Below, in pieces: positions 1 to 55,743 of a DNA stretch of 64,000 nt. A program made the translations under genes and the position numbers. How positions within the stretch are numbered: position 1 is the stretch's first letter; each line of letters starts with the position of its first letter. The stretch comes from Candidatus Hodarchaeota archaeon (GTDB lineage: Archaea > Asgardarchaeota > Lokiarchaeia > Sigyniarchaeales > SOKP01), in the NCBI GenBank assembly GCA_048886685.1, contig JBHLKM010000020.1:11301-75300 (forward strand), written 5' to 3'. The notes beneath the pieces were generated by a model. It worked only from the letters and a program-made list of their open reading frames with translations, was not told the DNA's origin and did not search any database.

Positions 1-127
1 CTGTTATATGAGCATAAAAAATTCTCATCATATCATCCAAATCAATTTCAAGATTTTCTGGATAACTTAGTTTAACAATCAATCCTTGATCCTCTGTCCA
101 TTCAGTTATAATAAAACCGTGTGCCAT
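1..127 (-). CDS. Longin/uDENN-like domain protein (partial, runs off window start)
   Basis: Hand translation from ATG at 127: MAHGFIITEWTEDQGLIVKLSYPENLEIDLDDMMRIFYAHIT. Matches the cytoplasmic domain of the two giant proteins (GLVLMKWDERIGTEIKVKYPSEINISEKSLMQIYSTH). The ATG directly abuts the stop of 128..2365. Confidence 0.75.
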   Translation of the reverse strand, partial: MAHGFIITEWTEDQGLIVKLSYPENLEIDLDDMMRIFYAHIT

Positions 128-2365
128 TTAAATTTCCTCCTCATTTTTAATTTTAGCTTTCTCAATTTTTTCAGCATCCTTTAGCTGGATGTATTCTAAA
201 TCTAAATCTTTTATTTGGTTTTCTCTATTATCTTTAATTAACTGCTCTCGAGAGTTTACTAAGATCTGTTTAGTCTTTTTGGTTTTCCGAACTTTTTTCT
301 TTAATTTTCTTATTTTTCTAACCAATGGGGGGTATTTAAAGTGCGTTTGATATAGAGTAAATATAAGAACTAAACCTAAGATTGCACCAATTAACAGATA
401 TATTAACCAACCTAAATCAGGTTGAGTTCCAGGTACATAGGCTCCTACATTTAAAGTTATTTCAAAATCCTCAAATTCATAATCTTCACCTACAAATCCT
501 GATACCGTTATTGTATAGAGACCTTCTGGCGGATTTTCTATTATTCCTTCATATACTCCATTGGTTTCAGTTAAAACCCTAGGAATAGGATCTCTATCCC
601 AAGTGTATGTAACAATAGCTCCCTTTATTAATTCATCATTATCAGTATCATTTAATATAATCTCTAATTGAGCATTATCTCCCACATCAATATTAATGGT
701 GGATTCTCCAGAGACAGTAGTGATCTCTGTATTTATTTTTCTTACCGTAATAGTTGGATTGATAAGTTTAGTTTGATAATTTGTTTTTGTAGCTTCAATA
801 TTCAAATAATTATCTCCCATACTCAGTTGTTGAGTTACATTGATTGTAATTGAATAATTATCCTCAAATTCTTCCAAACTTTCTAGAATTCCCACTCCAG
901 TTAATTGAATCACTGCTCCGGGTATATGAAAACCTGTTTGATTTGTATATTTTGCAGTTATAGTTAGATTTTGGCCAATAGGAACAGTAATAGAAGTCCT
1001 GTTTTCACCATTTAAAAATAATTGTAAAGCAGTTTGATAATCAGCAAATTCTATGGTATAAGAGATATTAAGATAAACTTCATCTATTGAAATTTTAATA
1101 GTACGATTTAATTTGAAATCATCAGCTATATATAATTGAATTGAAAGATTAATATTTTTATCTTCTTCTATTAAATATGTAATATCAAAACCTCCAGATT
1201 TAGCCTCTTGATAGAATGTATTGGCTTTTTCTAATAAATTAATGGATTCTGAGTGTTTAATACCATTAATAAAAATTTGTATTTCAGAATTTGGACTTAA
1301 ATTTGTCCAAGTATCATTAGTTTTATATTTAAAATTGAGAATTGCTTCATCTACAATGGTAATATTGCTAATTTCATTAATATCATTAGGTTTTGCTGTA
1401 TCCTGATTCCAAGAAATTGAAGTAAGTTGATCAATCTTTTTCTCATAAGTAAATGTTAGATTTATATAGTTGATCACTAGAGATTCCCAAAAATCATCAT
1501 CACTGTTCCAGTTATCTTCACACCAAATTCTTATTCCTAGTGTTACTGTGAAATTATAATTGTCATTATTTAAAACTGAAGTAAGAAAAAAAATTAGGCT
1601 TTCTTTTGGAACTATGAGCATGTCGGTATCATATAAATAGTCCATATCACCAGCCGAATCGTTTCCTAAACTAGTGGTTTGATAATAACCAATTTCATAT
1701 ATTTTATTCTTCTCTAAATCAGAAATCATGACGTAATATCTTACATAATCATAAGTTGCATATTGGGTTCCACCTTCCACATCATCATCAACAGCTTCTA
1801 CTCCTTCGGAAGCTCCATCATCTGCTTTTACCGTTCCATTAACTACAGCCCTTAAAGAAGCGGAAGTTATAATATAATCTGACATATTAACTGGCATTGT
1901 AATATTTTGATCCCAGTGAACACTTGGAGATTGATCAGCACCTTCACTCCAATGGTGATAAACTTCGCATCCTTTTTCATTGATTCCATATGTATCAGGA
2001 AAGAATGGAAAAGCTGGATTTTCAACATCAGTCCAATTTGCATCCAAGGGAGGATCTGCTACTAATGAAAATGTTTGTTTGTCTCCAAACACTTCAAAAT
2101 TTGCCTCACCTCCACTAATTTCTGCATCTACATCATCTGGATCTCCTAATTCTCCTTTATGTGATGTCCAATTCTCTGTAGATGAAAAGGAAGGATTTGC
2201 CATCCATGGCTTAAGATAAGATTCTTGTGCTGAGGTTTTAATTTGTTTTGAATTAATCAGATCTTTAGAATTATTTTCTAGGTTTAAGGAATAGAAACTT
2301 AAAAATCCAGAAAAAATAATACATATTAATATCATATAACTAGTTATCTTCTTATTTTTAATCAT
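128..2365 (-). CDS. Membrane-anchored cell-surface protein (N-terminal signal/TM, acidic beta-rich ectodomain, C-terminal TM and basic tail)
   Basis: 745-aa ORF with hydrophobic N-terminus, many N-x-S/T sequons and Ig-like segments. TM LGWLIYLLIGAILGLVLIFTLY is followed by KYPPLVRKIRKLKKKV. Confidence 0.8.
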   Translation of the reverse strand: MIKNKKITSYMILICIIFSGFLSFYSLNLENNSKDLINSKQIKTSAQESYLKPWMANPSFSSTENWTSHKGELGDPDDVDAEISGGEANFEVFGDKQTFSLVADPPLDANWTDVENPAFPFFPDTYGINEKGCEVYHHWSEGADQSPSVHWDQNITMPVNMSDYIITSASLRAVVNGTVKADDGASEGVEAVDDDVEGGTQYATYDYVRYYVMISDLEKNKIYEIGYYQTTSLGNDSAGDMDYLYDTDMLIVPKESLIFFLTSVLNNDNYNFTVTLGIRIWCEDNWNSDDDFWESLVINYINLTFTYEKKIDQLTSISWNQDTAKPNDINEISNITIVDEAILNFKYKTNDTWTNLSPNSEIQIFINGIKHSESINLLEKANTFYQEAKSGGFDITYLIEEDKNINLSIQLYIADDFKLNRTIKISIDEVYLNISYTIEFADYQTALQLFLNGENRTSITVPIGQNLTITAKYTNQTGFHIPGAVIQLTGVGILESLEEFEDNYSITINVTQQLSMGDNYLNIEATKTNYQTKLINPTITVRKINTEITTVSGESTINIDVGDNAQLEIILNDTDNDELIKGAIVTYTWDRDPIPRVLTETNGVYEGIIENPPEGLYTITVSGFVGEDYEFEDFEITLNVGAYVPGTQPDLGWLIYLLIGAILGLVLIFTLYQTHFKYPPLVRKIRKLKKKVRKTKKTKQILVNSREQLIKDNRENQIKDLDLEYIQLKDAEKIEKAKIKNEEEI

Positions 2366-23014: not shown

Positions 23015-23422
23015 TTAGAGAAGTTCATCTTCTAATTGTTGGGGAATATCTTCCAAAGAATCCTCAATAATCTCTTCAAACTCAGTAAACGCTCCAATCT
23101 GACCTTTATAATCCTTCAATTTTTCAGAATAAAGTTTTAAGAATTTGTTTGATATTTTTTCTAATTCACGATTAATCTTTTTCTGATTGAATCTTTTTGA
23201 CGAATTAGCAATGAATGTAATGTCACGTTTCTTAATTATCGTAAATCTTTTATTATCTAACTCAAAATTGGATAACCCACCATCCACTAATTGCTCGGCA
23301 AAAGTGTTTAACGCACTCATCATTGCACCAAATGCTTGAGGAGATACAAATTCATTGAACACCCTATGAAACATTACTATTCCAGATTCATTCAAAATCC
23401 AAATATCTTGGAGACTTTTCAA
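23015..23422 (-). CDS. Stand-alone longin-fold protein
   Basis: IWILNESGIVMFHR, FGAMMSALNTFA, F.K.Y...L..Y.G....F..F pattern typical of longin/adaptor-sigma-like domains. Confidence 0.75.
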   Translation of the reverse strand: MKSLQDIWILNESGIVMFHRVFNEFVSPQAFGAMMSALNTFAEQLVDGGLSNFELDNKRFTIIKKRDITFIANSSKRFNQKKINRELEKISNKFLKLYSEKLKDYKGQIGAFTEFEEIIEDSLEDIPQQLEDELL

Positions 23423-35143: not shown

Positions 35144-37198
35144 TTAAGCAGCAGATTCTAGAAATCTGTAAGCTATATATAAAAACGAATCGTTAACATT
35201 CTCCCCTGTTTTTGCAGAGGTGAGTATGTAAAAAAAATTATTCATGTTTGCAACATTTTTAATTTCATTTTCAGTAATAACTATTTCATCGACTAAATCT
35301 GATTTGTTTCCGACTAATATAATATTAAGATCTTTATCTACAAATTTCGTTAATTCATTATGCCATTTTTCAACAGATTTAAGGCTCTCTTTCCTGGTCC
35401 TATCTATCACAATAAATGCAGAATTAGCTCCTCCATAAAATCTCTTTCTATATGGTGTCATTTGGGTTATTTGACCTCCGATATCCCATATTGCAAAATT
35501 TATTTTCGTGTTTTTAGCTAATTCTATAGTTTTCTTTGATATTTCTAATCCAACTGTACTATGATAACCCTCTTTGAAAAGATTTTGTACAAAGCGTCTT
35601 ATTAATGAAGTCTTACCTACCTCGTAATCTCCTGTTAATACTAATTTTAATGAATAATCACCTGTAGGGATTTTCCCATCTTTAGTTTTAGATAAAATTT
35701 TTATTATTTGAGGTATTTGAAGTGAAACATTTTCATTGCCTTCTAATATCATTTCAATTTTACTTGCTACATGTTCGGAATAGACTCTTAATTCAGTATC
35801 TGAAATTGATAGATCTGAAATAGTTAATAATATTGATTTTAATCCCATCGAACAATATGCAAATTTTTTATTACTAATTGTTGTGATATTAAAGAAGGTC
35901 GTTTCGTCCTTAAATTCCTTCTTAATTCTCTCAATATAACTGTCAACTGATGCTGCTATCGCTCCAATCACATATTCATCTTCAAGATCTCCCTTACTCT
36001 CTGAAGTTATAATTAACCCCTCACGATCGCAGATGGTTATAGCAAATATATTCTCTACATCATCCATAAAATTCTTCAATAAAATTTTTAAACGCCTTTC
36101 TAAGAATGAAAGTCTTTTAATTGATGTTTCCTTCTCCAAGGGTTTTATTTCAGAATCTATTTGAGGAACCTCTTTACCCAACTCATCTTTAATTTTTAAT
36201 TGCATTCTATAAAAGGGCTCTACACTATCTCCCAGTTGTGAAGAGATTTTAATGATTTTCTCAAAAAGGTCATCAATATTTTCAAACTTGTCATTTTTTA
36301 ATGATTCTTCAAGTTCATGGATTAGGTTTTCTCGTTCAAAAAGAAGGTCTATAATTGGTAAAATATGGCGCTTCATTTCAAGCATTTCTGCAATGATTTG
36401 AATAAATCTTTCTCTATTATTGGGATCAATTGCACTCGTCGGAAACGTGTTCAATCCTAAAATTTCCCTTATTCTCGACTCGTTCAAGGCATTTTCCAAA
36501 TCTTGTTTATTTCCAATTCCTGCAGTATAAGCATAAGGAACTTCTTCTTCAATTTTGCTTAAAAAAAATTTTGAATTTATTACATTCTCTTCAGTTGAAT
36601 CCGTGATTAAGAGGATAGCATCGCTCCCTCTAATGAAATTATTCCACAGAAATCCAACATTTTCATCACCAGTAAAATCCCGTAGAAGGAAGGAAATTTT
36701 CCCAACTTTTAAAGTCGCAACATCCCCCGAGATACTAGGTTGATTTTCTACAGAGAACTCCTTTGTTCTTAGGAGGTTTACAATAGTGGACTTTCCCACT
36801 CCAGAATACCCTACTAATGAGATTATTGGAGGCATTCTGTTTTGAATTGGATAAATATATTGATCGATTTTCTCAAGATCCTTTTCATCATCTAAATCCA
36901 GAGTGGTATTTTCAACTAAGTTGAGAAATCCTTCTCTACACCTGTTTAACTCCTTCTTAATTTTGTTAAAAGGATCATTTACACTATTAATAAATAAGAA
37001 CAAGTAGTTTTTTTCTTTATAGTATGAGATTTTAAATTTGTAATAATCTTTATAATTAATAATATCTGTAGTTTTTGAAAAAGATTCCTCCAGAATGGGG
37101 GTAATTAATCTCTCAAATACAGTATCTTCTAACACTACACCGAATTGTTTAGTGTAAATATGTTTCATATCCTTATAAATTGAGATTTGTCGTAAAAT
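35144..37198 (-). CDS. Multidomain protein: longin-like + small GTPase + roadblock + Rab-like small GTPase
   Basis: GTPase 1: GYSGVGKST, DFTG, NKQD, TSA. Roadblock: ICDREGLII, GAIAAS. GTPase 2: GDYEVGKTS, WDIGGQ, NKSD, TSAKTG. Start is ATG 37168 or, more likely, ATT 37198. Confidence 0.88.
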   Translation of the reverse strand: MLRQISIYKDMKHIYTKQFGVVLEDTVFERLITPILEESFSKTTDIINYKDYYKFKISYYKEKNYLFLFINSVNDPFNKIKKELNRCREGFLNLVENTTLDLDDEKDLEKIDQYIYPIQNRMPPIISLVGYSGVGKSTIVNLLRTKEFSVENQPSISGDVATLKVGKISFLLRDFTGDENVGFLWNNFIRGSDAILLITDSTEENVINSKFFLSKIEEEVPYAYTAGIGNKQDLENALNESRIREILGLNTFPTSAIDPNNRERFIQIIAEMLEMKRHILPIIDLLFERENLIHELEESLKNDKFENIDDLFEKIIKISSQLGDSVEPFYRMQLKIKDELGKEVPQIDSEIKPLEKETSIKRLSFLERRLKILLKNFMDDVENIFAITICDREGLIITSESKGDLEDEYVIGAIAASVDSYIERIKKEFKDETTFFNITTISNKKFAYCSMGLKSILLTISDLSISDTELRVYSEHVASKIEMILEGNENVSLQIPQIIKILSKTKDGKIPTGDYSLKLVLTGDYEVGKTSLIRRFVQNLFKEGYHSTVGLEISKKTIELAKNTKINFAIWDIGGQITQMTPYRKRFYGGANSAFIVIDRTRKESLKSVEKWHNELTKFVDKDLNIILVGNKSDLVDEIVITENEIKNVANMNNFFYILTSAKTGENVNDSFLYIAYRFLESAA

Positions 37199-37450: not shown

Positions 37451-40400
37451 ATGAAAATCTATAGAAAAAACTTAAAATCTAAAATTGACATTCTTGGAAT
37501 TCTTTTATTCTGTTTAATTATTCCTCTTTTTCTAAATATTCCATTGCTAGGACTTAAAACAAATTACATTAATCAAGAATCTGATGAAAAAAATGTTAAT
37601 TATGATAAAATAAAAACAAATGCCCCTCCTAATGCCATTAGTTTTCAATATTACAAGACTATTACGATCGATCATAATAAAGTAGCCGGATCTGGTTCTT
37701 ATAGCAATTTTCCTGTATTAATTAATATTACAGACTCCGATTTAAGATTGGATGTTCAATCAGATGGAGATGATATTGCGTTTTCATTTGAGAATAATTG
37801 GTTAGATCATGAAATAGAATTATTTGATCAAACATTCAGTTCAACCCATGCTCACTTGGTTGCATGGGTTCGAGTACCCGATTTATCTGGGGTTATTGAT
37901 ACAGTTATCAGAATGTATTACGGCAATTCTAGCATGAGCTCTCGAGAAAATCCAACGGGGGTATGGGAAAGTGGTTATCGAGGTGTATGGCATTTAAATG
38001 AAGAGAGTCTTGCGAATCCAGCCATAGATTCAACCTCAAATTCTAATGACGGTACATACACTAATAGTCCAGTTTTGGGTCAAAATGGCCAAATTCACAA
38101 CTCTGTTGGATTTACCGATTCATTAGGTCAAAGGATTGAAGTTTCTGATGATGCCAGTTTGGATATATCTAATGAACTTACCGTAGAAGCTTGGATTAAT
38201 CCAAACCTTTTACCCGTTGGCATTGGTTCTAAATGGATGACCATAGTAAGTAAAATGGATGGATCTTGGGATGGGGGCAGCGTCTCTGATTTTGATATTT
38301 ACGTGGCAATTAATGATTATAATAATTATGACATTGGGCTTTCAAATCCTTCTAACTCTTATGACGAATGGAGTTCATCGGTATCTGTTTTAAATGCAAC
38401 TTGGCAGCATTTTGTCTTTACTTATCAAAGCTCAACTTCAATAGGAAGAATATTTTTAAACGGCCTGTATATGGCAGAACATAATTTTGGGATTGGTACG
38501 TTAGGCACGAATAGTAATCCCTTTTTTATAGGATTTAATATAGCCTGGACAGGAGAGGTATTTGATGGATTAATAGATGAAGTTCGTATCTCCAGCAGAC
38601 CTCGCTCATCAGGATGGATCTATACAGAATATCAAAATCAAAATGATCCAGATTCATTTTATTTAATTGGATCTGAACAGATCGTAACAACGGAACCTCC
38701 TGATGTAGGTTACTTCACATATTATAAAATTATTACTATTGATGCAGCTAAAATCGCTGGAACAGGGAGTCATTTCAATTTTCCAGTATTAATTTCAATT
38801 GTTGATGAGGATTTAAAATATCATTGTCAACCTGATGGTGATGATATTGCTTTTTCTACGGGAGGGGATTGGATAAATCATGAATTTGAATTATTCAATC
38901 AATCATATAGTACTACTGAAGCTCAATTAATAGTTTGGGTTAGAATTCCCATTTTGTCTACGAGTTTAAACACAACCCTCATTATGTATTATGGTAATGC
39001 AACAATGACTTCTCAAGAGAATCCAAGTGGTGTGTGGAATAATTATGTTGGTGTTTGGCATTTAAACGAAAGTCCAGCTGGAATTGTATATGATAGTACA
39101 GCTTACAGTAATGATGGTACAACTCTGGGCTCTATGAGCTCATCTGACTTAGTTTCTTGTCAAATAAGCACAGGTTTTGAATTAGATGGATTTGATGATA
39201 TGATTAGTATACCTGAAAGTACGAGCTTAGATTCGGTATCTGATGAAGCAACTTTATCATTATGGATAAATTGGGTTAATTCTTCTGATGGAGGATATCA
39301 AAGAGTGATGACCACTAGTAATCGTTTCACAGCAAATCCGACCCCGCCCCCAACACTCTTCCAAACTGATGGTTTTGAATGGGCGGTTCAACCTGATGGT
39401 GACCACTTCTTTTATCCGTATGGTGGCGTCAGTACTAATTATAATCTTGTTACCGATCCTTTTACAAATAATATTTGGCATTATCTCGTATTAACCTTAA
39501 ATTATGCTACAAAAAGTGTAAAAATATATTTAGATGGAACATCATTAAGTTTTACCATAGAAAATGTACCCTCGCAATGGATTCAATTAGCTAATCTCGA
39601 TGATTGGTTATGGGGAGGAAATTTGGTCGCAAGTGCGAGTCAAATTCTTGGTAAATTTGATGAAATACGAGTTTCTAATGTAGAACGATCTTCGGGTTGG
39701 ATCCTAACAGAGTATAATAACCAATATAATCCAAATTCATTTTATTCCGTAGGTAATGAACAACTAGTAAATGTTCAGCCAGTAAATGCGGATTACTTTA
39801 ATTATTATAAAGTTTTAACTATTGATCACACAAAGGTTAATGGAACAGGAAGTCATGTTAATTTTCCTCTTCTTATTTCAATATTTGATAAGGATTTACG
39901 ATATGATGTTCAAAATGATGGTGATGATATTGCATTTTCTATAGATGGTCAATGGTTAGACCATCAAATAGAACTCTTTAATCAAACTTACAGTGGAACC
40001 CACGCTCGTTTAGCTGCATGGATCCGTATTCCATTTTTATCAACTGCTTTTGATACTAACGTTTCGATGTATTACGGTAATTCTACGATGACCTCACGAC
40101 AGAATCCATCTCAAGTATGGAATTCGGGTTATGTGGCTGTTTGGCATTTGAATGAAGACCCCTCTGGCACACCTCCTCAGATAAAGGATAGTACTATTCC
40201 TGGGAGTGATGGTATCTCTTATGGTACAATGAGTTCTTCAGACCAAGTCTCCGGAATGATCGGAGGTGCGTTAGATTTTGATGGGATTAATGATTATATT
40301 GATCTTGGAAATCCTGGAGAATTGCATATTACAGGTGAATTTACTGTTCAAGCTTGGTTTAAGGTTAATTTTGTTGGTAATGATTATTTAGTCGTTAAGA

Positions 40401-43400
40401 GTGGGGGCACCGGCTTTAGAGGTTGGGATATCAGTTTTGATGATGATCCAGTGATCGCTCCTGACGGTTGGATTATGTTTCGTTACTCACCAGATGGAAC
40501 TAATACGATTTACACTGGTTGGGAACGAGTAAGGGTAAATCAATGGTATCATGTTGTCGGAGTATTCAAACCAAGTGAATATTCTAAGTTATTTTTCAAT
40601 GGAACTGAAGTAGGAATAAGAACGATTGGTGTTCCGCCATCTATGAATGATCCTTCTCTCCCTGTACGTATAGCTAGAAGATCTGATGCTGGTACGTCAT
40701 ATGTTAATGGTACTATTGATGAAGTTCGTATTTCTAACGTGGCTCGTTCAAATGATTGGATTGCCACCGAATACAATAATCAATATGATCCTTCCTCCTT
40801 CTATTCAATTGGTACGGAAATTCCACTGAAAGCTAAAATAGATTTAGAGGCTCAAATTGTAGCAATTGATCTCTATGGAAATCAATTACCAAATATAACT
40901 ATTTCAATGTATCAAAATACTCAATTAATAGATCGCGACATTACTGATGATGTTGGTTCTGTTTTATTTACTGAAATCATCGAAGGAGAATATAATTTTA
41001 CGGCAACGATAAGCTCAACTATCGCTAATGTAACTGAGCTTGTGAACATTACGTCTCAAGCAATTTTGCTTGATAAAGCATTTCAAACTATTACTTTAAT
41101 TTGCAACATAACTTCTCATTTCTTCGAAATTATTGATCTAGATAGCAGTCCTGTTGAATCTGGATGGATCATGGTTGGAAATGACACCCATATACTTCAA
41201 AAGTGCGTAATAGATCTTACAGGGCATACCACCTTTCGATGGGTGGAGGCCCCTCCTTCGGAGTATAATTATACGATCTATTATCGTGATATTATATATA
41301 ATCCCTCTACTCTTGAACTTGCCTCAGGAGATATTACTACAGAGAATGCTACTATACAAGTTCAAGTGGATCTCACAACCATAGAGTTTACAGTGCTAAC
41401 CCTTGATTCTCCGATAACTCCTGTGAGTGGGGCTAAGCTCAAGTTAACTGTGGGTGATCCTTTCGGAGCGAGTATAGTAAATTTAACAACGAATCTTGAC
41501 GGGAAAGCCACCTTGCGGTGGCTGGATTCCTCAGGAATAGGTGATGATTATTGTTTACAGATTGAATTTTTTGGAGAAAATCGATTATTCAATGATACTC
41601 TATTTTTAGATCACTTTGTAAATAACATAAGTTTTCCAGTTGTAAATAAGGATTCTATGGAATTAAGAATTTCAATTAATCTGAATTTGTTCCAAACAGA
41701 ATTAATCTCCTTAAATCCCACAGATTATATAGATGTTGAATGGGGCTCATTATTGAAGTTGCGAGCCTTATTTAATGTAAGTAGAGTTGAAACGGGCTAT
41801 GAACACCTTTTAGGACCTACTTATGCGGATTCCATGGTATATGAAATGTTCTTAGGAGGAAATACTATTCTTTCTGGTTCATTTTTAGAAGAGGCGGGGA
41901 ATGAGGGTAAGCATTATATAGAAATAGATACAAAAAATATTGAAAAGGACGAAAGCTATTTACTAATTATCTCAGCTCAAAAATCGGGATATACAATTCC
42001 ATCAGATTTAATTCTTCAATTAAATATTCTAGAGATTGATGTGGAATTAAATCAGTCGGATAATAATGATTCTAGCTCATTCGCATATTGGTTAGATGGC
42101 GTTAATATGACATTGAAATCCTACGGTCAAAATTCTGAAACTCTTACAATAGAGAATGCTCTTTTTCAAAGTGTTGACCATGAGTTTAATTTTGTGATTT
42201 CTGATGTTCACCAACAATGGAATTTATCCAAAATTGAGTTTAATATTTATGGTATTTCATGGAACACCGATATCCCAAATATTAATATTACCATCGAAGA
42301 TCCTTATGGCACTTTTTCCTATACATTTTATAATTATACTCATAGTGGATGGGATTACACTCAAGGCACATGGACAGGAATCACCCTTGAATTAAACCAA
42401 GCGAGTAGAACAAATGATAATAATTTCGAGTTTAAAATTAGTGGTACTTTTGATGGTGTTGTTGATATTATCGCTGATGCTTATTTTATAAGAGATGCTC
42501 TCAATGTGCAATACTCCAAATTTAATGTTAGTAGCGAACTCTCTCTTTTAACTGAAACAGAAGGATGGGCAATTAATAACGTGACCTTCGAGATCTCGAA
42601 CTGTTATTATACCTCTAACTGGAGTAAGGTAGACTTATCAACCCTCACAAATTTAAATATTACAACAAACGAAGGTTTTAAATACTCATTAGATTACGGC
42701 TATTCAGACGGCACGGGTATTCTAACTATAGATGATAAAGTCATTTATCCTTTTGGAAATCAATTCCTTTTTATAATCGAAAGCTTTCCTGATGTAATTT
42801 TTGATGCGCTTATAAAAGTTAACTATATTCAGGAATTTTACAAAACCCAAATTCTGGAAACCTATAATCTTACAAAAACAGAGCAAGGAGTTAACAACGG
42901 AGGAATTTTTCAAGTAAGTGCAGTAGAGTCAAGTTGGGCTGAGCATGAAGCATTTTTATGGGTCAAGGCTATTAGAAGTGGTTTAAATTACTTCTTTCCA
43001 TCAGATGTAAATATGAATATTACAATTGGAAGCCAAACATACAGTATTGAAGATCATGGAACAGGAACTGGACGTTTTTCATTGACAGGTTTTACTAAAA
43101 ATCAAATATTTCAAGCAGTCATTGACACATCTTCCACTGTAAATTTTAGTTTGGTGCTTTCAGTCAAATATTTACGAACTATATCTTATGAAATTGTAGG
43201 TGCGTTATCTTACACTGTTATTGGAGCTCCTTCCGTATATGGAACAGTTCAATACGATTCAAACTTAGGATATTATTTAAAAACAATCGATACTTCTTCA
43301 CTTGATGCTGATGATTATACAGTAAGATTCACTATGAATAAAGATCATTATCAACTCGCTAAAAAGGATCTTAAATTAACGGTTTTAAATCGTCCTACAT

Positions 43401-45484
43401 TGCTCAATGGTTCTTCTGAATTCTTTAGAAAAATTGCAAAAATTTATGTAAAGGATGCAGTGAATTTTAGTTTAATATTTACTGATGAGATAAGTGGTAC
43501 TAAAATAACTAATCTTGATAACCAATATTTTATCTGGGAAAGCTATGATCAGAGTGGTAATGTTAATGAAACTGGTCTTGGTAATGTATTTAGTGCTATC
43601 GATAACACTTATATATTAGATTTTAACACAAGAGCAAGAGCTGTTGGAGAATATCTACTCATCATTGTTCTAGAGAAGGATAATTATGATTACAAAAATG
43701 GGATGATCCTTCTTACAATCATAAAAAGAGATATTGATTATGTTTTAAGTAAAAATCTTCAAGATGGGCAAACTAATGTAGTTCAAGGCAAGAAAGTAAT
43801 AATAGGAATAAGTCTTACAGATCCTACAAAAAGAGATTCTTGGTTAATTAATGCGACTATAAAACTAACAGTTGGAAGTAAAACCTATGAATTCGTACAA
43901 CTTGCCAACGGTACTTACTCTCTTGAGTTTTCTACAAATAATATAAATGCATTCTTCACCTCAAAAACACTTCGAGGTACTATTACAATTTCTAAAGTTG
44001 ATTATAATCCCGTTGAAATAAAAATTACGATTGTTGTAGAGATGGAAGAAATATTACCAGGGATACCCACTTTTTATTTTCTGTTAATTGTATCAGCTAT
44101 AATTGCACTTGTTGGTAGTTTAGTTGGATATCGAGTCATTCAAAATGCAAGAATACCCTCCTTTGTAAAAAAAGTAAGAGAAATGAAGAAATCTATAAAA
44201 GGAGATAAATCAATTGCAGAATCACTTATATATCGTGAAAAAGAAGTATTCGTTGGAGAAATATTAAATAGCGATTGGAATGAAATTGGATTATCTTTAG
44301 AAGAAATATTTGGGATAACTATTGAAAAGGATAAGAAGAAAAAAACTTCACAAAGAAAGACTTTTGAAACTCCTATTGAACATGAAAATAAACCAATTGG
44401 ATTGGTTTTAATGAAATGGGATGAGAGAATTGGCACTGAAATCAAGGTAAAATATCCCTCAGAGATTAATATTTCAGAAAAATCTTTAATGCAAATATAT
44501 AGCACTCATGAATATAGTGGAGAAAAAGGGATCATAACTTTAACCGCAGAAGCTACTAATATCCTATCCTATTATTCAGGGCCAGAGGAAGGGTATTATT
44601 TGCTTTTACTCTTAAATTTGGATGATGATCCTGATCTTTATGAAGGGGGAATTGCTGATGTATTAACTATTCTTTTAGAATATATTGAAGATGATACTTA
44701 TCTACAAATGCTACCTACCCTATTCCAGCGTTTAGCGTTATATCCATCGCTCAGTTATGAACAAATTCTAGCACTCACTTACCAAAACAAGATAAAACGT
44801 TCAATTCTGAATCTGTTAATAGACGAAGGTTTAGCAGTTAAATCAGAATTAATAATTTGGCTTAAAGATAAACAAACAAAAGGTTTCTTTGATTTAGACG
44901 CGATCTTTAGCGAAATGATTAAATCAGAGATTTTAAAAGTTAGTTCTATTAAAGATATACCCTCCGAACTTATTTTTCTTACTAAAGATATCTTCATGGC
45001 AAGAATTCCTCCTCTTAAATTACTTGAAAAACCCACTAGTTTTGGTTTACCATCTCAATTTGCGAAAGAATATCCTAACGATGTAAAAAAATTCTTCCAG
45101 ACATATCATCCTACAGAAGAAGATAATATAAAGATTGCTGAGATATTAGTTAATCCTCAAGTTTATGAGACGTTAAGACTCTTAAGAAATGCAATTGTTA
45201 CTAGAGACGACCTTCAGAAACTCAGTAGTAGGGGAGTTGATGATATTTATAGTGTTCTAAAAATACTCTGGGATAATAAGATCATAAAAGTTTTTCACGA
45301 TAATCAAAACATTGAATATTATGCTCTTATTTCTGATTTTTATATCGATTATATTTTTCCAAAGTATTTATTGAAATCTATTAAAGATGCTTATGAGCAA
45401 AAATCAAAAGTTAAAAAAGCCTTGATTGAATACCTTAATATCCTTGAAGATACTTATTACAAACTAAAATCAGAAGAAAAATAA
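37451..45484 (+). CDS. Giant single-pass surface protein A: 3x(DUF2341 + LamG/ConA-like), Ig-like stalk, TM, cytoplasmic longin/DENN-like + helical domains
   Basis: Three YYK.ITID...NFP...DGDDIAF...WVR.P...MYYGN / VWHLNE...DEVRIS...EY.NQ modules; TM near 44070-44130; about 450-aa cytoplasmic tail. Confidence 0.88.
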   Translation: MKIYRKNLKSKIDILGILLFCLIIPLFLNIPLLGLKTNYINQESDEKNVNYDKIKTNAPPNAISFQYYKTITIDHNKVAGSGSYSNFPVLINITDSDLRLDVQSDGDDIAFSFENNWLDHEIELFDQTFSSTHAHLVAWVRVPDLSGVIDTVIRMYYGNSSMSSRENPTGVWESGYRGVWHLNEESLANPAIDSTSNSNDGTYTNSPVLGQNGQIHNSVGFTDSLGQRIEVSDDASLDISNELTVEAWINPNLLPVGIGSKWMTIVSKMDGSWDGGSVSDFDIYVAINDYNNYDIGLSNPSNSYDEWSSSVSVLNATWQHFVFTYQSSTSIGRIFLNGLYMAEHNFGIGTLGTNSNPFFIGFNIAWTGEVFDGLIDEVRISSRPRSSGWIYTEYQNQNDPDSFYLIGSEQIVTTEPPDVGYFTYYKIITIDAAKIAGTGSHFNFPVLISIVDEDLKYHCQPDGDDIAFSTGGDWINHEFELFNQSYSTTEAQLIVWVRIPILSTSLNTTLIMYYGNATMTSQENPSGVWNNYVGVWHLNESPAGIVYDSTAYSNDGTTLGSMSSSDLVSCQISTGFELDGFDDMISIPESTSLDSVSDEATLSLWINWVNSSDGGYQRVMTTSNRFTANPTPPPTLFQTDGFEWAVQPDGDHFFYPYGGVSTNYNLVTDPFTNNIWHYLVLTLNYATKSVKIYLDGTSLSFTIENVPSQWIQLANLDDWLWGGNLVASASQILGKFDEIRVSNVERSSGWILTEYNNQYNPNSFYSVGNEQLVNVQPVNADYFNYYKVLTIDHTKVNGTGSHVNFPLLISIFDKDLRYDVQNDGDDIAFSIDGQWLDHQIELFNQTYSGTHARLAAWIRIPFLSTAFDTNVSMYYGNSTMTSRQNPSQVWNSGYVAVWHLNEDPSGTPPQIKDSTIPGSDGISYGTMSSSDQVSGMIGGALDFDGINDYIDLGNPGELHITGEFTVQAWFKVNFVGNDYLVVKSGGTGFRGWDISFDDDPVIAPDGWIMFRYSPDGTNTIYTGWERVRVNQWYHVVGVFKPSEYSKLFFNGTEVGIRTIGVPPSMNDPSLPVRIARRSDAGTSYVNGTIDEVRISNVARSNDWIATEYNNQYDPSSFYSIGTEIPLKAKIDLEAQIVAIDLYGNQLPNITISMYQNTQLIDRDITDDVGSVLFTEIIEGEYNFTATISSTIANVTELVNITSQAILLDKAFQTITLICNITSHFFEIIDLDSSPVESGWIMVGNDTHILQKCVIDLTGHTTFRWVEAPPSEYNYTIYYRDIIYNPSTLELASGDITTENATIQVQVDLTTIEFTVLTLDSPITPVSGAKLKLTVGDPFGASIVNLTTNLDGKATLRWLDSSGIGDDYCLQIEFFGENRLFNDTLFLDHFVNNISFPVVNKDSMELRISINLNLFQTELISLNPTDYIDVEWGSLLKLRALFNVSRVETGYEHLLGPTYADSMVYEMFLGGNTILSGSFLEEAGNEGKHYIEIDTKNIEKDESYLLIISAQKSGYTIPSDLILQLNILEIDVELNQSDNNDSSSFAYWLDGVNMTLKSYGQNSETLTIENALFQSVDHEFNFVISDVHQQWNLSKIEFNIYGISWNTDIPNINITIEDPYGTFSYTFYNYTHSGWDYTQGTWTGITLELNQASRTNDNNFEFKISGTFDGVVDIIADAYFIRDALNVQYSKFNVSSELSLLTETEGWAINNVTFEISNCYYTSNWSKVDLSTLTNLNITTNEGFKYSLDYGYSDGTGILTIDDKVIYPFGNQFLFIIESFPDVIFDALIKVNYIQEFYKTQILETYNLTKTEQGVNNGGIFQVSAVESSWAEHEAFLWVKAIRSGLNYFFPSDVNMNITIGSQTYSIEDHGTGTGRFSLTGFTKNQIFQAVIDTSSTVNFSLVLSVKYLRTISYEIVGALSYTVIGAPSVYGTVQYDSNLGYYLKTIDTSSLDADDYTVRFTMNKDHYQLAKKDLKLTVLNRPTLLNGSSEFFRKIAKIYVKDAVNFSLIFTDEISGTKITNLDNQYFIWESYDQSGNVNETGLGNVFSAIDNTYILDFNTRARAVGEYLLIIVLEKDNYDYKNGMILLTIIKRDIDYVLSKNLQDGQTNVVQGKKVIIGISLTDPTKRDSWLINATIKLTVGSKTYEFVQLANGTYSLEFSTNNINAFFTSKTLRGTITISKVDYNPVEIKITIVVEMEEILPGIPTFYFLLIVSAIIALVGSLVGYRVIQNARIPSFVKKVREMKKSIKGDKSIAESLIYREKEVFVGEILNSDWNEIGLSLEEIFGITIEKDKKKKTSQRKTFETPIEHENKPIGLVLMKWDERIGTEIKVKYPSEINISEKSLMQIYSTHEYSGEKGIITLTAEATNILSYYSGPEEGYYLLLLLNLDDDPDLYEGGIADVLTILLEYIEDDTYLQMLPTLFQRLALYPSLSYEQILALTYQNKIKRSILNLLIDEGLAVKSELIIWLKDKQTKGFFDLDAIFSEMIKSEILKVSSIKDIPSELIFLTKDIFMARIPPLKLLEKPTSFGLPSQFAKEYPNDVKKFFQTYHPTEEDNIKIAEILVNPQVYETLRLLRNAIVTRDDLQKLSSRGVDDIYSVLKILWDNKIIKVFHDNQNIEYYALISDFYIDYIFPKYLLKSIKDAYEQKSKVKKALIEYLNILEDTYYKLKSEEK
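41108..41599 (+). repeat. 492-bp identical direct repeat, copy 1 (copy 2 at 49249..49740)
   Basis: Base-by-base reading shows no mismatch; offset 8141 bp; flanks are similar but diverged. Confidence 0.9.
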
Positions 45485-45645: not shown

Positions 45646-48600
45646 ATGAAAACAAGTAGAAATCAACTTATAACTATTAAAAAGAGAATTACAGTTTTAA
45701 GTCTTTTATTGTTCGTATTAATAATTCCTCTGATTCTAAGTTCACCATTATTTTCAAATTTATACAGGACTAATTTTGCAGAGGATAATGATGACAAGGT
45801 TAATGATAAAACTGAGTTGACACCAAAATTAAGTGCTCCTTTTAATGCACATTATTTTAAATACTATAAACTTATAACAATAGATCATAATCAAGTATCG
45901 GGAACATCTGGTCTTACTAATTTTCCTTTTCTGTTATCAATTTATGATGCAGATCTACGTTCTGATGTTCAATCTGATGGAGATGATATTGCATTCTCAT
46001 TAACTAATGTCTGGTTAGATCACGAAATTGAGGTGTTTAATCAAACGTACAATGGAACACATGCTAAACTAGTTGTTTGGGTGAGAATTCCCGTATTATC
46101 TGTTATTATCGATAGTATTATCCGAATGTACTATGGTAATAATACAATGAGCTCACGGCAAAATCCAAAAGGAGTATGGGATAATAATTATAAAGCTGTT
46201 TATCATATGAATCAAAATCCTAGTTCTTCATCTGTTCTAGATAGTACTTCTAATAACTATGATTTTACACCCGGATCTGGTTTTGTTTCCGGAGATCTTG
46301 TCGATGGTATTATCGGGAAGGCAATAGAATTCGGTGGAGTGAATACTCAATACCTTGAATTAACATCAGGTTTTTCAAATCCAACCACCTCTCTTTCCCT
46401 TGAAATGTGGTTTCGACCTCAATTATTTAATACGTATCAACGATATTTTACAGCCAGGTGGAGTTATCCTGATTTACGATTATTAGCTGATAACAGCATT
46501 TCAACCAGAATTCGCAATAATTTAGGTAATATCAGTTCTACACAAAGTACAATTCTCTGGCTTGACCAATATTACCATTTTGTCATGACCTGGCAAGGTG
46601 GATCAGTTGGACGTCAAAAACATTATCTTAATGGCACTCTAATTACGGATGATTACGATGCAGAAGCCTTAGGGACTTCTTCTAGTTGGACAGGATATAA
46701 TCTTGGTTCAGATACTGATCATACAGATCCTATAGGAGCATTCATAGAGGAATTCAGGATATCTTCAAATGTTCGTTCAGCTGATTGGTATGAAACCGAA
46801 TTCAATAATCAATATAATCCTAATAGTTTTTACACAATTGGTGCAGAACAAGAAGTAGTTTGGGAACCTCCAAATGCTCATTATTTCACATATTATAAAT
46901 TAATCACCATAGATCAAAATGAAGTAAGTGGAACTGGCATCCATACTAATTTCCCATATTTATTTTCATTTATTGACTATGATTTAAGATATCATGCTCA
47001 ACCAGATGGGGATGATATAGCTTTTGCTGTCGATGGAGATTGGCTGGATCACGATATAATACTCTTCAACCAAACATATAATAAAACTCATGCAGAACTA
47101 AGGGTGTGGGTCCAAATTCCCTCCCTATATACCACAAAAGATACTATAATTACTATGTTTTATGGAAATTCAACAATGAGCTCTCGAGAAAACCCCGAGG
47201 GTGTTTGGGACAGTGGGTATGCAGCAGTATATCACTTAGATGATGATTTTTTAGATTCTACCACTAACAATAGGGATGGAACAAATTCCGGTTCAGTAGA
47301 TGTTATTGGTAAGATAGGTGATGGTCAAGATTTTGAACATGATGATGGAAGTGATAACATCGATATCGGAACATGGAGCATCTCTGGGTACCAAATAACG
47401 ATTCAAGCATGGGTAAAATATGAATCCTTTGATTCAATTTGGTCGGGATATAGTGATGCCCGTATTTTATCTAAAAATTCAGGTTCAAGTGATGGTTCAG
47501 AATATCATGTGTGGATGTTGGGAACATATAATGAATCAGTAAACGAAAATGGGCCATATAATTTAAGAGGAAGAATAAAAACAGGAATGGATGATGCTAC
47601 TGGTACTAGTACAGTGGAAGCTACAGATCCATCCGGGCGTCTTTCAATTGATGAGTGGTATTTAATTTCAATAAAATATGATGGTACTAATATATATCTT
47701 GTTTTAGATGGAAATACAGTTCTTACACAAAGTAAAACAGGACCATTGCGTGAAAATAGTTGGCCGATATTTATTGGAAATAGTCCTACAGGAAATAGAC
47801 CTATAGATGCGATCATTGATGAGGTAAGAATTTCATCAGTGATTAGATCTGATGATTGGTTAAAAACGGAATATGATAATCAAAATGATCCTACCTCATT
47901 CGGTACGGTAGGAGAAGAAAATGTATTAAATGAAGATCCCCCAAATGCGCTTTACTTTGATTATCATAAAGTTATAACAATTGATCACACTAAAGTTAAT
48001 GGCACTGGTAGTCATGTGAATTTTCCTTTTCTAATATCCATTCTTGATGAAGATTTAAGGTATGATGTACAGAGTGATGGTGATGATATTGCTTTTTCCT
48101 TAGATGGTCAATGGTTAGATCACCAAATTGAACTCTTTAATCAAAGTTATAGTAGTTCTCAAGCAAAATTAATCACATGGGTTCGTATTCCATTTTTATC
48201 AACAGTTCTTAATACAAGCATTATAATGCACTATGGGAATGATAGTATGAGCTCTCTTCAGAATCCAGAAGGTGTATGGGTGGCATATAAGGCAGTATGG
48301 CATCTTAATGAACAATCTGGATCTGGTTATTATATCAAAGATTCAACTTCTAATAGTTACGACGGATCACCGTTTGGTACTCAATTTATAGATTCAGGGC
48401 AAATAGACGGATCTAGGTCTTTCTCAGGTATAGGAGACAACAGGATAATTATTGATAGAGGTTCGGAATTCTTTGATGGGGATAATATGTTTACATTTTC
48501 TTTTTGGATTTATCCGAATTATGAAGATGATTTAGAATGGCAATCAATGACAGATCGTTGGGTTTTTTCTAAAACATCTTCTGTTAGAATGTCCCGACTT

Positions 48601-51600
48601 TGGCGTCAAAGTTTTTTACCTGCAGGACAGGGAAGATTTCAAGCTGATATTCAATTTGAGACTTTTGGCACAACATATCTAAATGTATTGGTTTATCGGC
48701 AACAGTGGGCATATATTACATATTCATATGATGGTACTTATTTAAGGGCATATACGGATGGTGAGTTAGGAAGTAGTCAATATATTGGAGGTTTTCCTTT
48801 AATCACAGATACAAGCTCCTTTTATTTAGGTAGGTTTGATAGCTTCAAGGGATTTTTAGATGAATTTCGCGTTTCAAGTGTGTCGAGATCTGATGGATGG
48901 ATTGCCGCGGAATACAATAATCAATATAGCCCTAATACTTTTTACAATGTAGGCGATGAGGAGTATTCAAAACCAATAGCATTTGTTGATGCTCAAATTA
49001 ACGCTGTGGATTTATATGGTAATTTTCTACCAAATGTAACCATTTCTATGTACCAAAATATCGATTTAATAGAGTCAGATATTACTAATGGCAATGGTGC
49101 TGTTAGTTTTACAAACATTATTAAAGGAGAATATAATTTTACGGCAACGATAAGCTCAATTATCGCTAATGTAACTGAGCCTGTGAACGTCACACCCCAA
49201 GCAATTTTACTTGATGAAGCATTTCAAACTATTACTTTAATTTGCAATATAACTTCTCATTTCTTCGAAATTATTGATCTAGATAGCAGTCCTGTTGAAT
49301 CTGGATGGATCATGGTTGGAAATGACACCCATATACTTCAAAAGTGCGTAATAGATCTTACAGGGCATACCACCTTTCGATGGGTGGAGGCCCCTCCTTC
49401 GGAGTATAATTATACGATCTATTATCGTGATATTATATATAATCCCTCTACTCTTGAACTTGCCTCAGGAGATATTACTACAGAGAATGCTACTATACAA
49501 GTTCAAGTGGATCTCACAACCATAGAGTTTACAGTGCTAACCCTTGATTCTCCGATAACTCCTGTGAGTGGGGCTAAGCTCAAGTTAACTGTGGGTGATC
49601 CTTTCGGAGCGAGTATAGTAAATTTAACAACGAATCTTGACGGGAAAGCCACCTTGCGGTGGCTGGATTCCTCAGGAATAGGTGATGATTATTGTTTACA
49701 GATTGAATTTTTTGGAGAAAATCGATTATTCAATGATACTATAACTTTAACCAGTTTTGCAAATAACCTAAGTTTTACAGTCGTAAACAAGGATTCTATG
49801 GAGTTAAGAATTTCAATTAATCTGAATTTGTTCCAAACAGAATTAATATCCCTAAATCCCACAGATTATATAGACGTTGAATGGGGCTCATTATTGAAGT
49901 TACGAGCCTTATTTAATGTAAGTAGAGTTGAAACGGGCTATAAACACCTTTTAGGCCCTTCTTATGCAGATTCCATGATATATGAAGTGTTGTTAGGAGG
50001 AGATAATGTTCTTTCTGGATCATTTTTAAAAGAGGTTGAGAATGATGGAAGATATTTTGTGAATTTAGATACAAGCCAAATATCTAGCAATGAAAAATAT
50101 ATAATCATTGTTTCAGCATATAAATCTGGATATTCACTTCCTTCAGATTTAATATTCCAACTAGAAATTTCAGAAAAGCAAATTCAATTGAATCAGTCGG
50201 ATAATGATGATTCCGGTTCATCAGCATATTGGTTAGAGAGCGTCAATATGACACTGAACTCTTACGGTCAAAACTCTGAAACACTTACCATAGAAAATGC
50301 TCTTTTTCAAAGTGTTGACCACGAATTTAATTTTATGATTTCTGATGTTCACCAACAATGGAATTTATCCAAAATTGTGTTTAATATTTATGATATTTCA
50401 TGGAACACTGATATCTCAAATATTAATATTACTATTGAAGATGCTTATGGCTCTTTTTCCTATACATTTGATAACTCTACTCATAGTGGGTGGGATTACA
50501 CTCAAGGTACATGGACAGGAATCACTCTTACTTTAAACCAAGCGAGTGGAACAAATGATAATACTTTTGAGTTTATAATCAGTGGTACGTTTGATGGGAC
50601 TGTTGATATTATCGCTGATGCTTATTTTATAAGAGATGCGCTCAACGTGCAATATTCCAAATTTAATGTCAGTAATGAGCTTTTTCTCTTAACTGAAATA
50701 GAAGGGTGGGCAATTAAAAATATGACTTTCGAGATCTCGAACTGTTATTATACCTCTAACTGGAGTAAGGTGGATTTATCAACCCTTACTAATTTAAATA
50801 TCACTACAAACGAAAATTTTAAATATTCATTGGATTACGGCTATTTAGATGGAACAGGAATTTTAACCATAGATGACAGAATTATTTATCCTTTAGGAAA
50901 TCAATTCCTATTTACAGTTGAAAGCTTCCCAGATGTAATATTTGATGCGATTATAAAAGTTGATTATATTCAGGAATTTTATAAAACTCATACGTTGGAA
51001 ACCTATAATCTTACCAAGACAGAGCAAGGAGTTAGTAATGGTGGATTATTTCAAATAGATTTAAGTCAAAATAGTTGGACTAACCAAGAAGCAATATTAT
51101 GGATCACAAATATTAAAGATGGTTCAAATTATTACTTTCCATCAGAGGTAGGTATGAATATCACAATTGGAAGCCAGACTTATAGCATTTCAGATTTCGC
51201 AAGAGGAACCGGAAAGATTTCATTAAAGGGTTTTAATATTAATCAAATATTTCAAGCAGTCATTGACACATCTCCCTATGTTAATTTTAGCTTGGTGCTT
51301 TCAGTTAAATATGTACGATCTGTATCGTATGAAGTCGTCGGTTCTTTGTCTTACACTATATTGGAAGCACCTTCCGCGTTTGGAACAGTTCAATATGATT
51401 CAAACTTAGGATATTATCTAAAAACAATCGAAACTTCTCTACTTGATGCCGATGATTATACTGTAAGATTCACCATCAATAAAGATCATTATCAGCTCAA
51501 AATAAAAGATCTCAAATTAAAAATTTCAAATCGTCCTACTTTGCTAAATAGTTCTTCCGAATTCTTCAGAAAAATAGAATCAATTTATGTGAACGATTTG

Positions 51601-53737: not shown

Positions 53738-54655
53738 TTAATCACAATCTTTCGCTTGTTGCTGGTTAATCTTAATAAATGCTTCTTCTTGAAGATTTCG
53801 TTGTTTTGACTTTATAGATCTATTTACTTGATGTAAGTGTTTCATTGCATCATTTTTTCCTTCTTTAATATTATCAAATAACTCTTCTTTACTAAAACCT
53901 CCAGAAATTACAAGTGCTGTTTGAAAAGATTGATTAGGTTCCAATGTCATAAATTCAATTTGTATCACAGATAAAATTTCTCCTTCCCCCTGAAATAATG
54001 TATTTGAAAGATTTAAATTTTCTTGATCTATTTTGAAATCTTTAGTTAAGCATGTCTCGTAATTTGTTGATTTTGAAATCGGAGAAAATCCACCATATAA
54101 TCCGGTTTTATCGTATTGGTAAATGATGTCATTTTCCTTGTCATAACCTGATAGATCATTATCATAACCTTCCAGTCCATTAATATCAAAATCAAAGACA
54201 AAATACATAGAAAAATCTTTCAGGGCAAAATCTGAGATGTTTTTCACTGTAAAAAAAGTGCTGATATACGGAACTTGAGGAGGATTAAAGATATCTTTAT
54301 ACACCCTTACAAATTCTTTTTTCTTTAAATGAACTGATTGCAACCTATTTTCTTCAGCCAATTTCTTAAGATACTCAGTTATATTAAAATCTAAGGTAAT
54401 TCTACTTATAGCTGTCCCTTTTCGAGTATTTACCATATTATAAACAGGGGTAGGTTCGATATTTCTTAGAATCACTGGAATTGAACCAATTCTTTCACCC
54501 TCTAATTTAAAACTAAACCAAGGACCTGTTAATTCTTGTTCACTAAGATATACAAGGTATTTTCCCTTGTATGTAAGCTCTTTTATCGAAAATCCCATAA
54601 CATATCCACCAGCGTTTCAAGTTGTGAGCACATCGTGCCAATCTACCTTGATCAC
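53738..54655 (-). CDS. Putative selenoprotein of unknown function (305 aa, Sec13 at TGA 54619..54617)
   Basis: AGGAGG (54674-54669) then GTG 54655: MIKVDWHDVLTT-U-NAGGYV continues in frame into the track ORF 53738..54598. A SECIS follows the true TAA stop. Confidence 0.8.
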
Positions 54656-54765: not shown

Positions 54766-55743
54766 TCATAGAATCTCAATTACTCTGTAAGCAATATATA
54801 AAAATGCATCGTTAACATGTAAGCCTGTCTTAGCAGACGTAAGAATATAGTGAAAATCGAACTGTTTAGCAACATCTTTGATATCATCTTCACTCATTAA
54901 TGACTGATCAATCAAATCTGATTTATTTCCAACGATAACTATTGGAATACTTTTAGATACTGAGCTTTTAATGTCATTATACCATTTTTCTACACTTTTC
55001 AGATTGTCTTGACGGGATCTATCAATTACAATGAATGCAGCATCAGCACCATTATAGAACTTTGTTCTGTAAGGTGCCATCTGAAAACTCTGACCTCCGA
55101 TGTCCCAAATAATGAAGTTCATTTTTATTTTGTCTGATAAATCAATTGATTTTTTTGATACTTGAACCCCAATTGTAGATATATAATCCTCTTTAAATGT
55201 ATTCTCAACAAACCTTCTAATAAGAGAAGTTTTCCCTACTTGATAACTTCCAGTTAAAATTAGTTTGTGTGAATATTCTCCTGCCATTCTTGGGAGTTCT
55301 CCCTTCTTAGTTTTTGCCAATGCTTTTATAATTTCAGGGATCTCCAGAGAAACTTCTTCATTACCCTCTAGAATTAATTCTATTTTTCCAGCTATATGTG
55401 CTGAATAAACCTTTAATGCATTATCATTTGTAGATTGGTCTGCAACTGTTGTCAAAATGGATTGTGGACCTTCTGAGCAAAAGACAAATTTTTTATCTCC
55501 TGTGGTAGTCATATTAAAAAAACTCCCTTTGGTTCCAAACTCACTTTTAATTCGGTCTATATAATTATCAAGCATAGCTGAAATTGCTCCAATAATTGAA
55601 TCTGACTCTTCTTCATCTCCTTCTTTGAATTCTGAAGCAATAATAAATCCATTTCGATCACAAATAGCTACACCTAAAATACCCTCAACTTCATTGGAAT
55701 AACTTTTGAGAATTTGCCTTAAGCGACTTGGGAGGTTTTCCAT
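54766..55743 (-). CDS. Roadblock + Rab-like small GTPase fusion
   Basis: ICDRNGFII, GAISA; GSYQVGKTS, YISTIG, WDIGGQ, NKSD, TSAKTG. Paralog of the C-terminal half of 35144..37198. Confidence 0.92.
   Translation of the reverse strand: MENLPSRLRQILKSYSNEVEGILGVAICDRNGFIIASEFKEGDEEESDSIIGAISAMLDNYIDRIKSEFGTKGSFFNMTTTGDKKFVFCSEGPQSILTTVADQSTNDNALKVYSAHIAGKIELILEGNEEVSLEIPEIIKALAKTKKGELPRMAGEYSHKLILTGSYQVGKTSLIRRFVENTFKEDYISTIGVQVSKKSIDLSDKIKMNFIIWDIGGQSFQMAPYRTKFYNGADAAFIVIDRSRQDNLKSVEKWYNDIKSSVSKSIPIVIVGNKSDLIDQSLMSEDDIKDVAKQFDFHYILTSAKTGLHVNDAFLYIAYRVIEIL

What the first reader, a model, noticed from the sequence alone, without database searches (positions are those of the whole stretch)
1..2365. 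Split version of the giant receptor architecture: surface protein and longin/DENN-like module as abutting genes
Seen: the 745-aa surface protein ends in TM + YPPLVRKIRKLKKKV, the same juxtamembrane signature as the giants (IPSFVKKVREMKKSIK). The next gene starts at the base after its stop and begins with the domain that is fused after this signature in the giants. Inference: a fusion/fission pair, implying the basic tail is a docking site for a separate cytoplasmic signalling subunit.
Basis: partly seen in the sequence, partly recalled or inferred. Interest (0 to 1): 0.7.

Follow-up and report, generated by a model that had tools for sequence, protein, structure and literature searches.

The report
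Asgard surface-protein tail and longin adaptor
In many Asgard archaea, very different cell-surface proteins share one short inner tail that is predicted to grip a cytoplasmic protein built like a eukaryotic GTPase-regulator subunit; this gene pair is the ancestral two-piece form, and the giant proteins nearby are a later fusion of a related pair.

Summary
Confirmed. The 745-aa surface gene's stop abuts the ATG of a 375-aa gene that aligns end to end with the giants' cytoplasmic region (29%, E 3e-31 and 6e-39). The pair is adjacent in 29/29 informative Lokiarchaeial loci. The 375-aa protein folds as longin plus two winged helices (NPRL2-like layout, no DENN lobe, no conserved arginine finger). 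Co-folding docks the tail on its C-terminal half (ipSAE 0.78, best control 0.00), mainly by hydrophobic faces plus R706-D217, leaving the longin free. Across 250 Asgard genomes the tail (166) occurs only where the module occurs (181); Thor, Freya and Jord encode several tailed surface proteins far from one or two modules. Corrections: the giants form one nested clade next to two other split pairs in this genome (contig C6) and keep their spacing, so this is fusion by stop loss; this pair is a distant paralogue, not a fission product. Output is inferred: a longin-fused Arf-like GTPase neighbours the module in several lineages, a TrmB-like gene in this subfamily. No paper describing the system was found; this scan noted it before on other genomes. 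Nothing is shown experimentally.

The parts
128..2365 (-). 745-aa single-pass surface protein (signal/anchor, ectodomain, TM, docking tail)
   Evidence: no Pfam hit over cut-off; 661 homologues, named ones almost all Asgard MAG hypothetical proteins
1058..2218 (-). N-terminal beta jelly-roll region (residues about 50-436); outer part matches CBM4/MAM-type folds, with a large beta-rich insertion
443..1039 (-). two Ig-like stalk domains (residues about 443-641)
347..415 (-). transmembrane helix (residues about 651-673)
   Evidence: hydropathy scan
161..358 (-). conserved cytoplasmic docking tail (residues 670-735): P679, amphipathic basic helix (V682, I685, L688, V692), linker, second helix with R706, L709, I710
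   Evidence: alignment A3; predicted interface
136..142 (-). GAGGAGG ribosome-binding site for the module gene, inside the last codons of the surface gene
   Evidence: sequence; similar sites at the C6 pairs and orthologues
1..127 (-). first 42 codons of the 375-aa longin + two winged-helix module gene (continues to C20:10300); a 650-aa TrmB-like gene follows 18 nt later, outside the window
37451..45484 (+). giant A, fused form (DUF2341/LamG ectodomain, TM, tail at 44129-44326, module from about 44390)
45646..53622 (+). giant B, fused form (tail at 52270-52467, module from about 52525)
35144..37168 (-). 674-aa protein with longin-like start, Arf-like GTPase and a second, Rab-like GTPase, head to head with giant A; candidate partner

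Best explanation
A two-part receptor/adhesin-adaptor system of Asgard archaea. Single-pass surface proteins with freely swapped ectodomains share one two-helix cytoplasmic tail. A soluble module (longin, winged helix, winged helix, C-terminal helices) grips that tail with its C-terminal half and so sits under the membrane with its longin domain free. The longin most likely acts as a non-catalytic platform that pairs with another longin, such as the one fused to the neighbouring Arf-like GTPases, and so places or tunes small-GTPase switches where the surface protein sits. Shown by sequence: homology, adjacency, co-occurrence, one late fusion. Predicted: fold and tail-module interface. Inferred: ligand, GTPase partner, any signalling. 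Odds by step: tail binds module about 0.9; the module acts through longin/GTPase partners about 0.55.
Against: No experiment. This pair has no GTPase neighbour; a TrmB-like gene follows it in 26 of 29 loci. No conserved arginine finger or GP motif, and this subfamily has W-T where most relatives have W-D. Some relatives replace or alter the longin (C7 module; P0129, P0131, P0133), so the longin is not always needed. Genomes are kin, the tail profile was built partly from the same lineages, and the predictor was given the alignments from which conservation was counted.
Confidence: 0.6

Rival explanations
1. Receptor-to-transcription relay: the tail holds the module at the membrane, and the module or the co-encoded TrmB-like protein carries the signal to DNA.
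Against: The module is acidic (pI 5.0, family median 5.1) and its recognition helices have few conserved basic positions. Fused giants tether the module permanently to the membrane. TrmB-like neighbours are limited to part of the family.
Confidence: 0.2
2. Structural anchor or sorting adaptor without signalling: the module links adhesins to a membrane coat or cytoskeleton, or sorts them to protrusions and vesicles, as adaptor complexes do for cargo tails.
For: One conserved tail on many unrelated ectodomains is what a sorting or anchoring signal looks like; longins also occur in AP sigma/mu subunits, COPI and TRAPP. Lokiarchaeia have unordered surface proteins and protrusions (PMC9834061).
Against: In AP complexes the sigma longin itself reads the cargo motif (own knowledge); here the predicted site is the winged-helix half. 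Permanent fusion suits an anchor or receptor better than a recycling sorter. This rival overlaps the best explanation if a GTPase controls the anchoring.
Confidence: 0.17
3. One gene broken by a nonsense change or assembly error, or read through as a single protein; or a chance neighbour with a generic basic stop-transfer tail.
For: Stop and ATG are in frame with no gap in 18 of 29 loci, so read-through is possible in principle.
Against: Gaps of -8 to 45 nt including out-of-frame ones, reversed gene order in other lineages, own ribosome site, junction confirmed in contigs; the standalone 375-aa family is highly conserved; 34 other type-I proteins lack the tail.
Confidence: 0.03

Closest known systems
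NPRL2/NPRL3 (yeast Npr2/Npr3) of GATOR1/SEACIT
   Different: Whole-chain TM only 0.25-0.37; structural alignment covers the longin alone; about 11% identity; no Pfam NPR2 hit; no conserved arginine finger or GP motif; partner is a surface-protein tail, not NPRL3/DEPDC5.
C9orf72-SMCR8 and FLCN-FNIP longin GAP complexes
   Different: No DENN lobe; P after G mostly absent; this window's module has W-T; residue-level superposition not done.
NPRL2-like and DENN proteins reported in Asgard archaea (Liu et al., bioRxiv 10.1101/2020.10.19.343400)
   Same: That paper reports an NPRL2-organised family in most Thor and a few Loki genomes and many NPRL2-like longin fusions; the module may lie among those clusters.
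   Different: The passages read name two-component fusions and a roadblock-GTPase-DENN operon, not surface proteins, a docking tail or receptor fusions; this family is in 100/100 Lokiarchaeia. Its tables were not held.
Cadherin-catenin, integrin-talin and cargo-AP adaptor logic (own knowledge)
   Same: Variable ectodomains share a short cytoplasmic tail bound by a common adaptor.
   Different: Analogy only; no sequence or fold relation was found for tail or binding site.

Membership tests
Longin domain | five-stranded sheet between helix 1 and helices 2-3 (beta-beta-alpha-beta-beta-beta-alpha-alpha) | tested here: met
DENN domain proteins | uDENN (longin) lobe | tested here: met
DENN domain proteins | cDENN/dDENN alpha-beta lobe after the longin | tested here: not met
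   residues 140-375 are two winged helices and helical linkers in a confident model; they match ArsR-type winged helices
NPRL2/NPRL3 | longin followed by C-terminal winged-helix-like domains at about 380 aa | tested here: inconclusive
   order and length fit and Foldseek ranks GATOR1 chains high, but TM 0.25-0.37 and only the longin superposes
NPRL2/NPRL3 | Pfam NPR2/NPR3 sequence match | tested here: inconclusive
   no such family among the 25 listed for 95 members; divergence could hide it
Catalytic longin GAP subunits (NPRL2, FLCN, SMCR8) | conserved arginine finger in the longin loop | tested here: not met
   any Arg in the loop between strands 4 and 5 in only 19 of 95 sequences, no conserved column; loop chosen by topology, not by superposition
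Catalytic longin GAP subunits (NPRL2, FLCN, SMCR8) | GP motif before strand 2 | tested here: not met
   G15 in 84 of 95, next residue L/V/A/T/G, P rare
Longin GAP/GEF complexes | longin heterodimer with GAP or GEF activity on a small GTPase | not testable with these tools
ArsR-type winged-helix transcription factors | winged-helix fold | tested here: met
ArsR-type winged-helix transcription factors | basic DNA-binding surface and operator binding | tested here: inconclusive
   acidic protein, few conserved basic residues in recognition helices; binding not assayed
Fusion/fission (Rosetta-stone) pair | both halves homologous to one fused protein, split form conserved | tested here: met

The most novel reading that the evidence does not exclude
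An ancient, kinase-free archaeal transmembrane signalling system: exchangeable adhesin/lectin-like receptors recruit a GATOR1/C9orf72-like longin subunit through a shared tail, which pairs with a longin-fused Arf-like GTPase and so turns surface contact into local GTPase activity (protrusion growth, partner attachment, vesicle budding). It would be a prokaryotic forerunner of membrane-recruited longin GAP/GEF complexes.
Probability: 0.4. Interest if true: 0.9.

Novelty: new variant of a known kind. Interest (0 to 1): 0.74.

Why it matters
Asgard archaea have elaborate surface proteins and dozens of small GTPases and longins, but no link from the surface to that machinery is described in the papers searched. 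This gives named parts, a residue-level interface and a candidate GTPase, in lineages that include cultured Lokiarchaeia, so the question of how these cells couple surface contact to eukaryote-like switches becomes testable. It also shows a clean case of a giant receptor arising by loss of one stop codon. Caveat: the system was not found in the Heimdallarchaeaceae genomes searched (0/26), which weakens a direct line to eukaryotes.

Tried and rejected
Atlas feature hits for the surface protein were under 0.9 and not used; Foldseek hits for the ectodomain were generic beta-sandwich chains with TM under 0.25. Alignment A4 misplaced the tail-only rows and was used only for identities; the fused form was not folded. 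The careful tree did not finish; both trees are quick trees with SH-aLRT only, midpoint-drawn; long branches (C2, C7, Thor_2) were left out of the second; one search failed on a script error. No RNA holder listed, so co-transcription and read-through were not examined. The sigma-70 promoter scan is at chance level and not suited to archaea. No sequence overlap joins C11 to C21; their linkage rests on synteny in relatives. The count of 8 printed undercounts through a script slip; 12 is. Single Loki-like hits in G272 and G282 may be bin contamination. Nine paper searches found no description of the system; subscription papers are not covered. Rejected: DENN membership, catalytic GAP subunit, fission from the giants, broken gene.

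Full report
Setting. The window is G000:C20:11301-75300, a 4.4-Mb, roughly 31% GC genome whose proteins match Promethearchaeota/Lokiarchaeia records. Contamination is put at 8.4%, so paralogue counts may be slightly high.

Observation. The 745-aa ORF (2365..128, minus) ends in TAA directly before the ATG of the next gene, in frame. The whole next gene is 375 aa and aligns end to end with the cytoplasmic regions of giant A (residues 2317-2671, 29%, E 3e-31) and giant B (E 6e-39). The surface protein shares only its TM and tail with giant A (E 5e-4). A ribosome site sits in the last codons of the surface gene, and public contigs bridge the junction without differences. A 650-aa TrmB-like protein (HTH, long coiled coil) follows 18 nt downstream.

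Conservation. The module is found in 100 of 100 genomes of the class. Of the 30 best loci, all 29 with upstream sequence have a tail-bearing gene just upstream, with gaps of -8 to 45 nt (0 in 18), and 26 of 29 have the TrmB-like gene downstream. In this genome 12 proteins carry the tail: six are fused to the module, four sit directly upstream of a module gene (C20, C6 twice, C7), one is cut by a contig end, and one (C21) lies, by synteny in 6 of 6 relatives, head to head with the 417-aa module of C11. The other 34 type-I-like proteins do not match the tail. Across 250 Asgard genomes the module is in 181 and the tail in 166, and none of the 69 module-negative genomes has the tail. Positive lineages include Odinarchaeum, Freyarchaeum, Jordarchaeales, Atabeyarchaeia, Thor- and Helarchaeota; the family of Ca. 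Heimdallarchaeum (0/26) and a Borrarchaeum-like family (0/2) had no match in those searched. These genomes are kin, so the match is not a statistical proof. In Odin, Atabeya and Hel genomes the two genes are neighbours in either order. In Thor, Freya and Jord genomes three or four tailed proteins, mostly large single-pass ones, lie away from one or two module genes, and in G092 three tailed genes precede one module. That many-to-one pattern is what a shared subunit acting in trans predicts.

Docking. Co-folding tail (670-735) with module gave ipSAE 0.78 against a best control of 0.00; the mark was reached by 58 of 80 solved and 2 of 110 mismatched pairs; the runs agree in at least 87% of contacts and partner pLDDT is at least 71. 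No solved relative of the whole module was found by sequence, so recall of a known complex is unlikely, but this is a prediction. The first tail helix (I685, L688, K689, V692) packs on the end helices (I363, L366, E370); the second (R706, L709, I710) on D217, F339, P341 and Y343. No longin residue is listed. These module residues are the family's most conserved (interface entropy 1.52 against 1.77, p 0.017), and the tail keeps P679 (52/53), I/V685, R/K706 (49/53). The basic residues probably also face the membrane (inference).

Direction. All 13 fused modules form one clade (SH-aLRT 95-96) nested among unfused ones, next to the two C6 split modules, which are 54-58% identical to giant A's module against 28% for this one. 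Forcing this module into the fused clade is rejected (p-AU 4e-40). The distance from the tail proline to the module's first glycine is 79-81 residues in 12 fused proteins and 81 and 79 in the C6 pairs when the stop is counted as a residue. So the giants arose once, within Lokiarchaeia, by loss of the stop codon in a C6-type pair; the pair in this finding is an older sister subfamily.

Output. A related longin-fused Arf-like GTPase gene flanks the module in Freya, Jord, Thor (twice) and Hel (twice), lies between the two C6 pairs, and a longer relative faces giant A in this window; a Rab-like gene abuts the C7 module. About 2% of ORFs here are small GTPases. By analogy with longin heterodimers that dock GTPases in GATOR1, FLCN and CSW, the free longin most likely pairs with such a protein (inference, about 0.55). 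The TrmB-like neighbour of this subfamily offers a transcriptional route instead; the module itself is acidic and a poor DNA-binding candidate.

Prior knowledge. Liu et al. (10.1101/2020.10.19.343400) report NPRL2-like longins in Asgard archaea; PMC12290439 reports GP/arginine-finger longins in Heimdallarchaeia; adhesin-like surface proteins are reported in Lokiarchaeia (10.1101/2025.07.22.663070; PMC9834061). None of the passages read describes the tail, the pairing or the fusion. Earlier unverified notes of this scan reached a similar reading on other genomes; my reading was recorded before I saw them, and they are not independent evidence.

Verdict. Real and well supported as a receptor-tail/adaptor pair; signalling output unproven. 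New variant of longin-platform systems, interest 0.74.

Noticed in passing
window 35144-37168 (-): 674-aa protein with longin-like start, Arf-like GTPase, a roadblock-like middle part (by eye) and a Rab-like GTPase in one chain, head to head with giant A.
   Followed up: partly
window 37451-45484 and 45646-53622: Giants A and B share a nearly identical stretch of about 150 residues in the stalk (A about 1215-1375) while their heads differ; by eye, suggests gene conversion or recent domain exchange.
   Followed up: no
window 54766-55743 (-), 53738-54598 (-), 23015-23422 (-): Rab-like GTPase with a 160-aa N-terminal extension and an unannotated 286-aa gene right after giant B; a 135-aa stand-alone longin-like protein.
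   Followed up: no
L070:7964-11278 and L071:1798-7509 (Hel-type genome G009): Surface proteins with two TM-plus-tail units in one chain, that is two receptors joined through an extra TM.
   Followed up: no
L069:1605-2159 and L097:1468-1893 (Thor-type genomes): Small proteins that are almost only the docking tail, with little or no ectodomain; possible membrane anchors or decoys for the module.
   Followed up: partly
P0190, P0237, P0254, P0129, P0131, P0133: Module relatives with extra domains, judged by eye: SIR2-like and TIR-like C-terminal extensions, and helix-hairpin-helix-like N-termini replacing the longin.
   Followed up: no
G000:C5:101125-101502 and C12:100572-101213: Short relatives: longin alone with a full W-D-x-x-x-G-P motif, and longin plus one winged helix near two Rab-like genes.
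   Followed up: no
G000:C17:15909-18053: Same jelly-roll head as the 745-aa protein, but fused to a different cytoplasmic region without the tail; several other type-I proteins carry about 240-aa cytoplasmic parts of that kind.
   Followed up: no
G000:C11:164382-167869 and C21:1-2104: Paralogous cassette (417-aa module, 734-aa TrmB-like protein with a CxxC start, divergent tailed surface gene) split over two contigs.
   Followed up: yes
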